Positions 28,201 to 34,200 of a stretch of DNA of 64,000 nt are shown in pieces. The notes beneath the pieces are model-generated. The model was not told the origin of the DNA. It saw nothing but the letters and a program-made list of their open reading frames with translations, and searched no databases. The position numbers were made by a program, and so were the translations under genes. How positions within the stretch are numbered: the first letter of the stretch is position 1; each line of letters begins with the position of its first letter. This DNA comes from Paraspadella gotoi (lineage: Eukaryota > Animalia > Chaetognatha): contig JBJCIZ010000239.1 of NCBI GenBank assembly GCA_051294375.1, positions 6,867,545 through 6,931,544 on the forward strand. Direction: 5' to 3'.

Positions 28201-31200
28201 TTTTTAATTGATGGCCTCGCAGTGCCAGAACGGAGAAAAAAATAATGAATTTTTTTTCTTTTTCTGGTTTCGTCTCTTTCATTCGCTAAATTGAATAATT
28301 TTGTTACAGTGATTAATATGAAATAATTCAAAATATTAGAATTTTTTTTTCAATTCATATTCTATGCTGTATTCAGAAGAGTGAAATTTCGAAAAAAAAA
28401 AATTACATACGTAAACTGTTGAAATATAAAAAGTCAGGATTTTAATGAGACATTTTCTCTCTTCGTTTTTCAGAGAAAATTTTTCAAAAACATTCGCTTA
28501 ACTACAGAGAAATGGCGGAAAAACATACAAAAAACTTTCTGCGTCTCGTTGCTCTCGTGTGGAGCCACGGAACGGCGGCCGCGCGGCGTAGATTGACAAA
28601 ATGCTACCGAGCTCAAGGAGAGGTTTCCCTGAAAAGCTGGTTATTGTCGAAAAATAAAGATATAACAAGTGACGTGAGATGGAGAGGGGCGTCTGGCAAC
28701 AAGCCCCTGTTCCCGAATCAATACGATGTTCTCTTTCCAAGTGATCCTTTTCGGGAAGACGTGAACGAGAAAGATCTGGATTTGACTCTGACTTCTTACC
28801 TGTTGACGAGATTTTGCGGAAGTTATCTCTCGTCTGAAGGCCGCCGAGCCATGGCTAATATGCGTCAACTTAGAAACAAACTCGCTCATTGGAACGACGC
28901 CACCATGGATCACCAAACGTTCGAGTTGATGTGGGCGAACATAGTCGGAACGATCAATATACTAGATCCAGAAAGCCCCTATGATTTTTACCATATCAAA
29001 AATGAACTTTTGGATGAAGAAAAAGTGCAAGAGTACAAGCGAAAGATGGAGGAACAAGAAAAGAGAGAATTAAACATGGGTATATTCTTGGAAGAAAAAT
29101 TGGAAAAACTGGAGACAGTGGAAGAAAACACGAGCCTCATTCCCCAGCTTGCAAAAGATGTCAGTCAAATAAAAAAGGACATGTCTGTAAACAAAGGCAA
29201 TAATTCTACGTTTGAAACAAACAACCAGACTAATGCATTCTCATCCGATCCATTGTTTGATTTTGAGGAAGGAGATTTGAAACAGAAAGATTTGGAACTG
29301 ATCCTTACATGTCATTTACCGAACAAATCTATCGTCGTATACAAAAAACTACCCGAAATGTGCAAACTTTTTTTAGACATTTTAAGCCTTTGGAACACAC
29401 CAGATCGAGCAAAGAGTTACATCCTTATAGGAATAAAGTCATCCAATCATCTGGAAAAGGCCGAGGTTTTGGGAATTGATGAGGATGAAACTTTTCCAAT
29501 AGAAATACCCTTTATGAATGAGGAGTATTTGCAAAGTGTACCTCAATTTTTATCTTACAAAATGGTTTTTAAAAATAAAAATACTGCTGAATCAAAGCAC
29601 ATCGGTGTTTTTGAAATTCTGAGTAGCCAAAACGTGAATAGCCCTCCAGCTATGTTGAAGAAAGAGGTGACCTTTGGTGGAGATCCTATAAAAAAAGGGT
29701 TAATATGGATACGAATAGGAAACACAAACAAAGTAATTGAAATATGTGATGCAATGTACAGACGAATGATTGAGTGGTTTAACTATGATCAGGAAAACAT
29801 GATATCAATAGAGGATGAGGAAAAATTGGAATCAATGCATAGCGAAGAATTTTGCCAAAGCATGGATCATTTCAGATCTGGTCGTGGACATGGATTTTAT
29901 ATTCTAATCACTGATAAAATAAATTTGGAACAAGAACAGTATCGAAAATCGTTAACTAAAGTACCCTGGATTTTGGTGCTGGATTTTGATATTGATTCAT
30001 TCAAATCTGGATTTCACTCTTGTTTTAGGTCGTATCAACAAAAACGTTTGGAAAACAAAACATGGAATGATAAAAATATAAAATTAGATGAAGAATTTGT
30101 CAACTGGGTATTTATGCTTGGGGTTAAATTTGACAGCGAATACACCTCAGGTCATTCAAAATGGGCCAAAGATTGTAAAGATTGTTTATTGAAAATTACT
30201 GAAGAAATTAAGAATTTTTCAAAGGATGGAAATATAAAAATATTAGTAATATGGAATGAAAACACCTCCAAAGTATATAAATTCTTAGAAAAATTACTGA
30301 ATTTTTTTGATTCACATTTATTACATTGTCCAAGAAGCATTGAACTTATTGCTTGCAGTAAATATCCTTTACCTATTCTGGAAGATTTATCATTGGAAAA
30401 TTATTATTTCAACTTGGATGTCACTAACGTTTTGGCAAACATAAGAAAAGAAACTGCTACAAAGAACAACTCTCTAACTGGTTACTTGCTTCCAGTTCGG
30501 GATAAATCCAAATTCAATAATCCAATGCTAACTACGGAAGATACTCTTTGGATAGCAGAAACCCTGGATGTGCTATACCTTGAAACAAATCACGAACAAG
30601 CTTTGTGTTATGAAGAAAGAAATAAGATTGAAATAGAGTTTTTAAAAGGAGCTGGCATTACTTGGAGTGCGTGGCAGAGATTGGGTGATTGCTCATTTGC
30701 AATTCAAAGAGTATGGTTTGACAAAATTGAAACTGAGCTTCTTAGTTTAATGGAATCAGAAACAGGGACAGTTGAAATTGTACATAGCCCAGGAGCAGGT
30801 TGTACAACTTTAGCAATGCAGCTGCTTTGGAACATGCACAGAAAATATCCATGCGCCCAAGTGAAACCAAATCAATTTGATAAATCCTATCCAGAATTGG
30901 CAGAACTTTTGGCTCAAAAAATTTCCCTGCTATGCAAAAAAACTGATTATCCAGTTCTTTTATTTCTTGATGAACCAGAAAAAACTCTTCTAGAAGAGCT
31001 TCCAAAAGTAATTAAACCATTAAGTTGTGTTTTTTTAACAACTAATAGAAATATAGCAACAAACAAAAGCAAAATGACCTTTAAAGAACCTGGGAAAAAG
31101 GTTCGTTTTGAAATCAAAGGAATATTAGAACAGTCAGAATCTGGACGCATGATAAACAAGCTATCAACTGTGGCTCCAGAAAAGAATAAAGAATTAAAAA

Positions 31201-34200
31201 AATTGTCAAATTCTTCTTCTATGTTAATTGAATTTAGTTTGACTGCTTTTGTAAATGAATTTAAAGGTTTGGAATCGTACGTTCAAAATGTTTACAATAA
31301 TTTAGAAAATAAGCATAAAGCAGTTTGCAAGTATTTGTCATTTGTTGATGTTTTTAGTAATAGTGGATTTAGAGATTTAAAAACGCAGATATTTTATGAC
31401 AAAAGTTTATTGGAGAAGGTTGACAGTAACAAAGAATTAAACAGCAACATGCTTTTAGAAGAGCCACTGCTTCAATACCTGGTAAAACCATCTAACAACA
31501 GCAGAAAAATCAAGATGATCCATTACTTGTTTTCTGAAAAAATATTACAATTTTATTTAAGGAACTACAATGATGATACAACTGACTGCTCCTACCCAAA
31601 ATTACATGTTTTAGCAAAAGAGTTCATAAATTTTATCACAGAGGGTAAAGACGAAATGGATTCTGATGATAAATGGCTATTGACTCAAATATTTTTAGAA
31701 AGACCAGTTACAAAGTCTGAAACTAAAGGGGAGACACCCAAGTATACATATACATATGTCATTATGTCTATTGAAGAGTCAACGGAAGAAGCAACTATTC
31801 AAAGAAGGCAAGAAGTCTTTGAAAAACTAAGTGAAAAATTACATTCAGACCCTCATACACATGCCCATTTGGGTAGGTTTTACTATTTATCAGCCAAATC
31901 TTATGAAAAGGCAATTTCAAGCTTTGACAAAGCTGTGCAATTAGTAAGAGAGGCAATAGATTCCCCCATAAGAACAAAGGACAGTACACATTTTTCATCA
32001 GCTCGGATTGTATACCAAATGTATGCAATGATGGATTTTAGTTTGATGAAAAATATGTCAAGGAATTTAGATACAAATAAAGATGTCAAAATGGAAGAAT
32101 TCATTACTGTAATCAGAAGAGGTTGTCGGCATTTCAAAATGAGCAGAGAATATACCAAATCTGACAATGATCATTATTTCCTAACTTACTTGTCAGAAGT
32201 ATATTTTAGACTGAAGTACTGCCATATTTTACATTTTAAAAATATTTTTGATTTAAAAAACATTCCACTGCGAATTGGTCCCGATAAAAAGAGCTGGGAA
32301 AAAGATGCAGCAGACATTGTTAATGAGTCGTTTGAATTAATTGATGGCCTAATCATGAGGGCAAGCACTTGCATTGAAGAATCTAACAGTTCAGCAGATA
32401 AAGAAGTTCAAGAGGCGAACTGTCAGTACAAATCTTTGTTTGGTTCTATCGATACTCGGCAGTTTGGTGATGATACTATTTTTTCGAGAAGAATGAAGGT
32501 TGCGGCTATTAAACTTCGTTACCTAAATGAAAAAGCCGATAAACCAATACAAAGTGACATTTTTGGTAGTCTTAGAAATGTTACCGGGGAAGATTTGAAA
32601 ACCTCTGTTAAACTTTTAGAATGCAACATCACAGAGGCGATACAAAGCAGTGAAAAGATTGTTTCTGACAGACGGTTTGAAAATGATCTCACTGAATGGT
32701 TAACTGGCATCAGACTAAATAATTTTCTGGAGGATTATAAATTAGAGCATGTTTTAAAAGTACTTGAGCAGTCTAACAGAGCTTATCGATCACCAATTGT
32801 TATGTTCTACACAGCAATACTAAGGTTTTTGATCGGCGTAGGTTCATCTAAAAAAGAAGGCGATTTGGATATGATTTCGTCGTCAGCACAATTAATGAAA
32901 GAACTAAAGGAAGAACGTCGTAGAAAAGGCAGCACGTTTTCCAAACATGAGAACATTCGAGAATGGTTGGGAAAGCGTGGTGGAATCAAAAGGCTCCAAC
33001 CATCATTTCGGGGTGAACCGCTGAATGTGGAAGAGCTTAATTCATGCTATGGATTCATTAAAAGTCCAAATGAGTACCGACATTCGGGTCTAATTTCCCT
33101 TGAAAAAATAGGAAACAAAAGATTGATAAAACCATTAGACGTTTATCTCTCTTTTCGTCAAAAAGGAAAGCAAATGCCTTTGAGTGGAAGCAGGTTTGCT
33201 TTTAAATCGAAAAGATAAACAACTCACGACATCCGATGCATCGACGATAGCCTTTAGAGTTTTACTTCAATAATTACCGTTGAAATTTAACGTGATTTCG
33301 TGATTCTGTGGAAAGAAGCTCACGCTTTTCAAGTGTAGTAACACGAAAATCGAACCCTGCAAGATGTTGGGACTCTTTTTTCAAACAAAAATTTAGGTTG
33401 AATGGAATCTTTTGAAGACAACGACAACGAAAGAAGAAAAAAAAAGGATAGAGCTAAACTTAACCAAAATGAACTTTTCGTCTTCACCAAATCTTAAATC
33501 TCAAATCTTATATCTCAAATCTCAAATCTCAAATCTCAAATCTTAAATCTTAAATCTCAAATCTCTATTCTCGACTTTAAAATACAAGTAAAAACGATTT
33601 TCGACTCTCAACTCTCTACTCTCAACCCTTGATTCTCAACTCTCAACTCTCAATTATAATACTCTCAACTATCAACTATCAAATACCGACGCCAAAGAAC
33701 TCAATTTTTACAAAATGATAACAAAGAAAACTTTCGTCTTCTCCCACCACCTGGCCTCCTCATGGTGGTCACGCGGATCTCATCTCCTCAACTCCTCACG
33801 AGGCCGGGTCCTTTCGTTCTCGCACAAGTTTCTCACGGGCTTGAAACGCGTCGTCCTTCTACGTCTGGAAAAAGTCGGCAACCGCGCCGGCCGACGAACA
33901 GCCGGGCTTCGCCGACCACGAAGATTCGGTTCCCAGGCTTAAAAACGGAACCAGTGTGCAGCAGCATCAGCCATCAGCAGCAGCGAGGATCGACGACTTT
34001 GCTGTGCATGATCGCAGCAGCAGAAGCAGCGTCTTTGATCTCTTTCTCTTCGCCTGAAAGGAAAGCAGCATTGGCGACAGCTGCAGCCGACGAGCAACGG
34101 TCAAAGGAAAAGTTACGTCTCTCTTTCTGGATCGAAAGCAGCAGCGGCAGTTGCAGTCTGGAAGGAAATACGACGACGACTCCTTTTCGCGTCCGCTGGC

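What the first reader, a model, noticed from the sequence alone, without database searches (positions are those of the whole stretch)
28512..33218. HEPN-SAMD9 fusion: animal STAND antiviral sensor with an RNase-type effector in place of SAM
Seen: a 1568-aa intronless ORF whose core matches SAMD9/SAMD9L motifs in order (AlbA-like, [18 protein letters not shown] / [13 protein letters not shown]). Residues ~1-160 are not a SAM domain. They form a DZIP3-type HEPN with an intact R-x4-H motif (RNKLAH, 28872-28889), followed by a coiled-coil-like linker. Established: SAMD9/9L are virus-triggered STAND proteins whose Schlafen-like domain cleaves tRNA-Phe and which resemble prokaryotic Avs defence ATPases. 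HEPN RxxxxH domains are dimerisation-activated RNases (PrrC, RloC, Cas13, Csm6, RNase L). Inference: sensing by TPR/OB drives STAND oligomerisation, which dimerises HEPN and cuts RNA, giving an Avs-like modular immune nuclease in an invertebrate. I cannot confirm that this architecture is unreported.
Basis: partly seen in the sequence, partly recalled or inferred. Interest (0 to 1): 0.88.

Follow-up and report, generated by a model that had tools for sequence, protein, structure and literature searches.

The report
SAMD9-like sensor re-armed with HEPN RNase
An animal gene fuses a predicted RNA-cutting HEPN domain to a distant relative of the human antiviral sensor SAMD9 whose own RNA-cutting site has lost its key residues, so it likely is an immune sensor that swapped one nuclease for another; the window's assembly cuts off its last 23 amino acids.

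Summary
The fusion is real. Residues 57-175 match Pfam HEPN_DZIP3 (46.6 bits, cut-off 27), with R121-x4-H126. The rest matches human SAMD9 by sequence, profile and predicted fold, and keeps the ATP-switch residues. Three corrections. (1) The 1568-aa ORF is clipped: 4 of 4 runs join 33206 directly to 40386, past a 7.2-kb high-copy repeat and a 25-N gap. The real protein is 1588 aa with a complete OB end, and runs of one study show a spliced 5' leader. (2) It is not a SAMD9/9L orthologue with HEPN swapped for SAM. It is a long-branch member of a mostly invertebrate clade, and none of 150 scanned hits has SAM. (3) Its Schlafen/AlbA domain lacks the catalytic Ex4(E/D)xK motif, as do all 37 animal-type domains aligned, while 48 of 48 prokaryote-type domains keep it. 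HEPN is thus the only predicted nuclease. Likely mechanism: sensor opening and oligomerisation pair the HEPN domains, which cut RNA (inferred, untested). No orthologue was found, and 2 of 6 data sets carry frameshifts. HEPN-STAND fusions are known (HEPN-NACHT in bivalves and corals); HEPN on a SAMD9 core was not found in print.

The parts
28453..28473 (+). Pyrimidine tract and AG splice acceptor of a 5'-UTR intron
   Evidence: Sequence. Contigs of X8, X9 and X2 carry other letters before 28474. Read in frame, that leader has a stop 14 codons before the ATG. The upstream exon was not found in the window.
28512..29036 (+). DZIP3/hRUL138-like HEPN domain (aa 1-175), predicted RNase
   Evidence: Pfam PF18738, 46.6 bits. 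31-33% identity to P0109, P0119 and P0153. AlphaFold helical bundle.
28872..28889 (+). R121-N-x3-H126 HEPN catalytic motif (RNKLAH)
   Evidence: R, N and H are kept in P0109 (R-x4-H) and in P0119/P0153 (R-x6-H). The only listed variant in the motif (28889) is synonymous.
29016..29231 (+). Long helix (possible coiled coil) and flexible linker, aa 169-240
   Evidence: DSSP helices 169-203 and 211-223, pLDDT below 50 at 200-214 and 223-256. The helix is shared with P0109 and P0119.
29274..29786 (+). Schlafen/AlbA_2-like domain (aa about 255-425), predicted catalytically dead; the Ex4(E/D)xK site reads P270/N271...V276-Y-K278 (29319-29345), third acid D289 kept
   Evidence: Profile of 41 prokaryote-type domains: aa 284-435 match at E 5.4e-17. 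Motif census. Motif definition from PMC13056530 passages.
29880..30461 (+). SIR2-like domain (aa about 457-650), includes PWILVLDFD
   Evidence: Aligned to human SAMD9; invariant or nearly invariant columns.
30609..31571 (+). STAND nucleotide-binding module (aa about 700-1020): H758, lysine-less Walker A (30783-30809), Walker B D820/E821, Sensor-1 R846, winged-helix H1004
   Evidence: The equivalents H737, T744, D799/D800, R837 and H985 are described in PMC13600222 passages.
31749..32951 (+). TPR-like helical repeats (aa about 1080-1480), predicted sensor region
   Evidence: The profile hits TPR and IFIT structures; helical model up to aa 1200. Residues after 1200 were not folded.
32952..33206 (+). 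OB-fold, first part (to K1565)
   Evidence: Aligns with the C-termini of homologues; profile domain 2 against SAMD9 is weak, E 0.08.
33207..40385 (.). 7179-nt high-copy repeat ending in a 25-N gap; supplies the false stop at 33216-33218; not part of the gene in any run laid
   Evidence: Summed contig depth 741-4380 against about 27 on the gene in X1. No target-site duplication found, but the right end is N. 0 of 58 stop-to-stop fragments reach a Pfam cut-off.
40386..40457 (+). True end of the coding sequence: 23 aa and stop, completing the OB fold (protein 1588 aa)
   Evidence: Exact match of the read-through letters at 40389. Joint 33206-40386 in 4 of 4 runs. The tail carries a motif found near the end of 84 of 141 stored proteins of 1000 aa or more.

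Best explanation
The gene encodes a 1588-aa SAMD9-family STAND protein with an N-terminal HEPN domain and a Schlafen domain that lacks its catalytic motif, and it likely works as an innate-immune switch in which sensing of infection would open and oligomerise the protein, pair the HEPN domains and cut RNA. Shown here: the domain order, the intact R-x4-H, the kept ATP-switch residues, the lost Ex4(E/D)xK motif and the true C-terminus. Transcription is inferred from spliced contigs of one study. Inferred from human SAMD9: an ATP-bound closed state, and activation through SIR2/SIR2 and OB/SIR2 contacts that bring the N-terminal domains together. Inferred from HEPN enzymology (recalled, not from a call): a composite active site made by two R-x4-H motifs. 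The trigger and the RNA target (tRNA, rRNA or viral RNA) are unknown.
For: HEPN profile above cut-off. Motif kept in the closest HEPN relatives, which form two independent clusters. SAMD9 is the top hit by sequence, by profile (E 1.8e-58) and by fold (Foldseek E 5.6e-24, Avs5 next at 1.4e-12). Switch residues are conserved. AlbA motif intact in 48 of 48 prokaryote-type and 0 of 37 animal-type domains. One contig of X2 (4998 nt) runs from the spliced leader through HEPN to the true end with 1 substitution and 0 gaps; X1 covers the coding part to 33206 with 0 differences. In SAMD9, oligomers bring flexible N-terminal nucleases together (PMC13600222 passages). HEPN-NACHT fusions are common in bivalves and corals (PMC9646362 and PMC8260672 passages). 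An ESM Atlas cluster of 84 proteins, 45% with HEPN_DZIP3, representative 1444 aa, is the second-best look-alike at 0.91; its core could not be checked.
Against: No orthologue: 0 of 148 core hits among the best 150 of 507 representatives carry HEPN, so selection on the fusion is not shown. The 357 weaker hits were not listed. Two of six distinct data sets carry frameshifts: a net 2-nt loss at 32118-32132 in X6/X7 (apparently one data set), and 1-nt deletions at 28937 and 29915 in X8. The structural match of the N-terminus to HEPN proteins (Csm6 Z 7.5 over 114 aa; AbiF Z 7.5 over 150 aa) is tied with unrelated helical bundles, and Foldseek gave nothing at E<=0.001. In the passages read, RNase activity of DZIP3-type HEPN is inferred from the motif alone. 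No infection data were examined.
Confidence: 0.55

Rival explanations
1. A young fusion that is decaying: expressed, but on its way to a pseudogene or dispensable.
For: Frameshifts in 2 of 6 data sets, a repeat in the assembled copy, a long terminal branch of 1.7-2.1, no orthologue, and the HEPN part differs in base composition (GC3 0.51 against 0.26-0.35 in the core).
Against: Every switch residue checked and the HEPN motif are kept although identity to the nearest relatives is only 27-29%. X1 and X2 hold the reading frame intact end to end. Contig indels may be errors. Null alleles are also expected for costly immune genes (inference).
Confidence: 0.17
2. HEPN plus helix acts as an adaptor: the sensor recruits separate HEPN-coil proteins, or other partners, and is not itself the nuclease, as CARD and Death domains do in sister proteins.
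For: Sister proteins carry CARD, Death or LOTUS-like N-termini on the same nuclease-less core. The closest HEPN relatives are short HEPN-plus-helix proteins of 233-267 aa, though they lie on contigs of only 1.1-1.4 kb and may be fragments.
Against: The catalytic R, N and H are intact, which a pure adaptor would not need.
Confidence: 0.13
3. A two-nuclease protein: the AlbA domain is still active through other residues and remains the main effector, as in human SAMD9.
For: The domain is retained and folds confidently (pLDDT about 80-90 over aa 271-420); D289 and K278 are kept. The N-terminal motif region did not align in the local search and has low pLDDT, so its register is less sure.
Against: No E-x4-(E/D)-x-K occurs upstream of the conserved WNTP in this protein. 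Loss of these acids abolishes activity in a bacterial Schlafen (PMC13056530) and in SAMD9 (PMC10246899). 35 of 72 clade members show no AlbA match at all.
Confidence: 0.07
4. An active HEPN-STAND RNase with a non-antiviral job, such as transposon control or stress-induced RNA turnover.
For: No infection data. PMC9646362 itself names transposable elements as possible targets of these HEPN proteins.
Against: The studied relatives by fold (SAMD9, Avs5) are antiviral, and a prokaryote-type relative lies on a contig of the viral collection (L001).
Confidence: 0.08

Closest known systems
SAMD9 family sensu Mekhedov, Makarova and Koonin 2017 (PMC5445408), invertebrate members such as Lingula XP_013415988.1 (P0052)
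   Same: AlbA, SIR2-like, lysine-less STAND, TPR, OB in that order; variable N-terminus; groups with these proteins (SH-aLRT 98; FastTree 0.97).
   Different: N-terminal HEPN, which occurs 0 times in that paper's 3 supplementary files and not in the text parts read. No C-terminal cysteine-rich tail as in the aligned mollusc relatives. Long branch, 27-29% identity at best.
Human SAMD9/SAMD9L (PDB 9zjr, 9zjs; PMC10246899, PMC13600222)
   Same: Core fold and switch residues.
   Different: No SAM, and the Schlafen catalytic motif is lost. The query scores only 40 bits against human SAMD9 but up to 135 bits against prokaryote-type proteins, so it is probably not an orthologue. No vertebrate SAMD9 row was available for the tree.
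Bacterial Avs9-type proteins (PMC12680541) and Avs5
   Same: AlbA-SIR2-STAND-TPR-OB body; the prokaryote-type hits share the N-T-P signature of the AlbA domain.
   Different: They keep Ex4DxK (48 of 48) and carry no HEPN in the scans. That these hits belong to Avs9 as defined in the paper was not tested.
DZIP3/hRUL138-like HEPN-NACHT receptors of bivalves and cnidarians (PMC9646362, PMC8260672, PMC3710099)
   Same: The same HEPN family in front of a STAND NTPase with repeat sensors.
   Different: There the NTPase is NACHT; here it is a SAMD9-type module with AlbA, SIR2-like and OB domains.
Bacterial HEPN-STAND-TPR-S1/OB proteins listed in PMC3710099 (Npun_F6454, Desac_1927)
   Same: The same overall logic and domain order: HEPN, STAND, TPR, OB.
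   Different: Listed among the other fusions of a different HEPN family in that table, and prokaryotic. No sequence comparison was made here.

Membership tests
SAMD9 family (broad) | AlbA_2 domain present | tested here: met
   E 5.4e-17 to a profile of prokaryote-type AlbA domains; Pfam SLFN_AlbA_2 itself does not hit.
SAMD9 family (broad) | SIR2-like domain, STAND, TPR, OB in order | tested here: met
   Profile against SAMD9 E 1.8e-58, OB part weak; Foldseek E 5.6e-24 for aa 1-1200; OB end restored by 40386-40457.
SAMD9 family (broad) | Walker A without lysine, with upstream histidine | tested here: met
   [10 protein letters not shown]764 where 54 of 59 aligned relatives have G; H758 kept.
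SAMD9 family (broad) | Groups with named family members | tested here: met
   Sister to 18 animal-type rows including Lingula XP_013415988.1, SH-aLRT 98; long branch, quick tree, midpoint root.
Vertebrate SAMD9/9L | N-terminal SAM domain | tested here: not met
   No SAM hit at E<=1.
Vertebrate SAMD9/9L | Active Schlafen tRNase site | tested here: not met
   Ex4(E/D)xK absent; mapped through prokaryote-type relatives, not directly onto human residues.
Vertebrate SAMD9/9L | Orthology by phylogeny | not tested
   No vertebrate SAMD9/9L sequence was among the stored proteins identified.
DZIP3/hRUL138-like HEPN | Pfam PF18738 above gathering score | tested here: met
   46.6 bits alone, 39 bits in the full protein, cut-off 27.
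DZIP3/hRUL138-like HEPN | R-x4-6-H motif with N after R | tested here: met
   R121 N122 H126.
DZIP3/hRUL138-like HEPN | HEPN fold | tested here: inconclusive
   Csm6 (Z 7.5, rmsd 3.7, 114 aligned) and AbiF (Z 7.5, rmsd 5.0, 150 aligned) are among the top rows, tied with unrelated bundles; no Foldseek hit at E<=0.001.
HEPN RNases | RNA cleavage by a dimeric active site | not testable with these tools
   Needs an assay.

The most novel reading that the evidence does not exclude
An animal SAMD9 lineage lost its Schlafen tRNase long ago, leaving a large clade of nuclease-dead sensors, and this gene re-armed the sensor with an unrelated HEPN RNase, perhaps keeping the dead AlbA domain as a tRNA-binding guide. 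That would be Avs-style effector swapping of one anticodon nuclease for another inside an animal genome, and would make DZIP3-type HEPN activity testable in a single switchable polypeptide.
Probability: 0.35. Interest if true: 0.8.

Novelty: new variant of a known kind. Interest (0 to 1): 0.6.

Why it matters
Hundreds of DZIP3-type HEPN genes sit on invertebrate immune receptors, and in the passages read their RNase activity rests on a motif alone. This gene couples one to a switch whose human counterpart is solved and has known activating mutations, so activation and cleavage can be tested directly. The census also suggests that invertebrate SAMD9-like proteins of this clade cannot work like human SAMD9 (0 of 37 domains keep the catalytic motif), which I did not find stated in the papers read. 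On the practical side, the assembly clips the OB fold, so a clone made from the window's ORF would lack a part that human SAMD9 needs for activation.

Tried and rejected
Complex prediction of two copies of aa 1-200: no verdict (scores 0.00, 0.00; alignment not used), which is no evidence either way. Word-index homologue searches: nothing for the whole protein (4991 candidates) or aa 1-200 among proteins of 862-2744 aa (937 candidates); alignment A1 gave 2 proteins, neither with HEPN. No genome is held, so paralogues outside the window were not searched; tblastn finds none inside it. The look-up of sequencing runs listed no holder on record as RNA; the RNA reading of X2, X8 and X9 is my inference from spliced ends and from an adaptor-like end in X9 that I recall as a template-switch oligo. 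A second ESM Atlas query (aa 1-520) did not complete, so the 84-member HEPN cluster is unverified. Related-locus scans: A1 and A2 were too diverse for genome or metagenome patterns; A3 in metagenomes gave 0 of 253; A1 in viral contigs gave 2 loci, of which L001 was read. AlbA alone finds no PDB sequence. The first tree dropped the query through a length filter and was redone (126 of 156 proteins kept, then 36 chosen). Rejected: an intron at 33207-40385 (ends TC..NN, and the joined form stands in X1 and X4, which cover the 5' intron and so read as genomic); an N-terminal extension from the upstream exon (in-frame stop in the leader letters); a coding transposase in the insert; tRNA genes (0). 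Paper searches listed nothing relevant by title or abstract start.
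Full report
Observation. The ORF 28512-33218 (+) gives 1568 aa and is by far the longest in the window. Pfam finds HEPN_DZIP3 at aa 57-175 (46.6 bits, cut-off 27) and no SAM. 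The PDB sequence search returns human SAMD9 (E 6.5e-10). [quoted passage not shown] The AlphaFold model of aa 1-1200 (pLDDT 79) has SAMD9 as its best fold match (E 5.6e-24), then Avs5.

The gene is longer than the ORF. Self-comparison showed that a 2.1-kb repeat starts inside the last codons. Public contigs of the same organism stop matching at 33206 and continue with letters found in the window at 40386, directly behind a 25-N gap. In 4 of 4 runs laid over both sides (X1, X2, X4, X9; two studies; the first three may be the source of the assembly) a single contig joins 33206 to 40386. Its depth is about that of the gene: 26 against 27, 57 against 57, 222 against 227, and 24 against 24-32. X6, from a third study, shows the same continuation with one different letter. 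The 7179 nt between are a high-copy repeat. The added 23 residues supply the last OB strands seen in relatives. The insert is either a gap-filling artefact or a private allele; contigs drop rare variants, so this is not settled. A second 25-N gap in the window is flanked by an inverted duplication, which favours the artefact.

Expression and alleles. No run is on record as RNA. But contigs of X2, X8 and X9 (one study) leave the window exactly after the AG acceptor at 28473 with a shared foreign leader, and X2 has almost no cover on the repeat, so I read them as spliced transcripts. The X2 contig spans leader, HEPN, core and true end with 1 substitution and no gap, which rules out a chimeric assembly of HEPN and core. 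Against a clean picture: of six distinct data sets (X6 and X7 look like one), X6/X7 has a net 2-nt loss at 32118-32132 and X8 has 1-nt deletions at 28937 and 29915. X4 and X9 have holes in the listed pieces.

Relatives. A full HMMER scan with aa 1-1200 found 507 representatives at E<=0.001; the best 150 were listed, at most 29-30% identical over the core. All 150 were scanned with Pfam: HEPN_DZIP3 occurs only in P0109 and P0119, short proteins that match the N-terminus alone. No core hit has HEPN and none has SAM; CARD, Death, LOTUS/winged helix, TCAD9 and CHAT occur instead. Named hits are molluscs, a brachiopod, echinoderms, tunicates and a lamprey, plus one Smithella protein (30 looked up, most others unnamed, so 'animal-type' and 'prokaryote-type' are partly my labels from the tree). 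P0052 is Lingula XP_013415988.1, listed as a SAMD9-family member in the supplement of PMC5445408. The query joins the animal-type rows as a long basal branch (FastTree 0.97 on 126 of 156 proteins; SH-aLRT 98 on 36 chosen rows); its exact place is unsure. SAM does occur in some other invertebrate family members (oyster and acorn worm rows) and in Atlas look-alikes. The Atlas also lists a cluster of 84 proteins, 45% with HEPN_DZIP3, at score 0.91, so related fusions may exist; I could not open it.

The Schlafen domain looks dead. Passages of PMC13056530 define the catalytic Ex4(E/D)xK motif and show that E15A/D20A abolishes activity; PMC12680541 and PMC10246899 give the matching acidic residues for Avs9 and SAMD9. 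I aligned 90 AlbA-like domains (24 bits or more against a profile built from 41 prokaryote-type ones); 5 lack the motif region. The motif is intact in 48 of 48 prokaryote-type and 0 of 37 animal-type domains, the query included. Another 35 of the 72 clade members show no AlbA match, some perhaps through incomplete gene models. In contrast the ATP switch is kept: H758, T765/T766, D820/E821, R846 and H1004 correspond to H737, T744/T745, D799/D800, R837 and H985 in PMC13600222.

Mechanism. In human SAMD9 an ATP-bound closed form opens, SIR2/SIR2 and OB/SIR2 contacts build oligomers, and these bring the flexible N-terminal nucleases together. Here the flexible N-terminal module is HEPN on a long helix and linker. 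HEPN RNases build their site from two R-x4-6-H motifs (recalled). The simplest reading is that oligomerisation pairs the HEPN domains and cuts RNA, with HEPN taking over the job that AlbA lost. All steps after the anatomy are inferred. The fold search for the N-terminus puts Csm6 and AbiF among the top rows with the longest alignments, but ties them with generic bundles.

What is known. HEPN_DZIP3 fused to NACHT, TPR, ankyrin and death-fold domains is documented (PMC3710099, PMC9646362, PMC8260672; passages), as are bacterial HEPN-STAND-TPR-OB proteins and N-terminal shuffling in the SAMD9 family (PMC5445408, parts 1-2 of 4 read). HEPN on a SAMD9 core was not found. Search SAMD9+HEPN: 8 papers, 6 listed, 2 works opened as passages. 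Search DZIP3+HEPN: 10 papers, 8 listed, 3 opened as passages. Further searches: seen as listings. Supplement term searches of PMC5445408, PMC12680541 and PMC3710099 gave 0 relevant hits. Figures, figshare alignments, the large architecture files of PMC3710099 and most subscription papers were not seen and could hold such a case. Earlier AI notes of this scan describe bacterial nuclease-less SAMD9-like genes followed by a separate HEPN-like partner. If right, that is the same pairing in two genes; I did not test it and count it as a lead only.

Verdict. A real gene, likely expressed, with an apparently unreported combination of known parts, made more interesting by the dead Schlafen site and less certain by the lack of orthologues and by broken alleles. 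New variant of a known kind; interest 0.6.

Noticed in passing
window 48033-54964: A 3.4-kb inverted duplication (95.6%) centred on another 25-N gap (51521-51545). This pattern suggests long-read gap filling (recalled knowledge) and lowers trust in DNA next to 25-N gaps in this assembly.
   Followed up: partly
window 42923-45058, 40874-41101: Further partial copies of the repeat that interrupts the gene; no coding family recognised. Public contigs differ from the inserted copy by many single-base indels, as expected of unpolished long-read sequence or of an old copy.
   Followed up: partly
window 32118-32133 (runs X6/X7): A short complex replacement with a net 2-nt loss near codon 1203-1208, which would leave HEPN to NOD but remove the later TPRs and OB. 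Whether such an allele is null or active is open.
   Followed up: partly
window 26790-26845 and about 13572-13622: A tRNA-like fragment (possible SINE head), found twice by self-comparison; ARAGORN calls no gene.
   Followed up: partly
L001 2056-5730: A 1224-aa AlbA-SIR2-STAND-TPR-OB protein with intact Ex4DxK on a viral-collection contig, beside umuDC-like, SOS-peptidase-like and methylase-like ORFs (names from recall): a likely prophage-borne Avs9-type defence gene.
   Followed up: partly
P0156: A SAMD9-like core with an N-terminal glycosyltransferase-like domain (PF00534, PF20706), another effector variant.
   Followed up: no
P0002-P0060 C-termini: The aligned invertebrate relatives end in a four-cysteine, zinc-ribbon-like tail after the OB fold; the query and the prokaryote-type proteins lack it.
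   Followed up: no
window 54461-57068 and 61325-64000: Another dispersed repeat family (85-99% identity among copies), not characterised; the rest of the window is microsatellite-rich with no other convincing long ORF.
   Followed up: no
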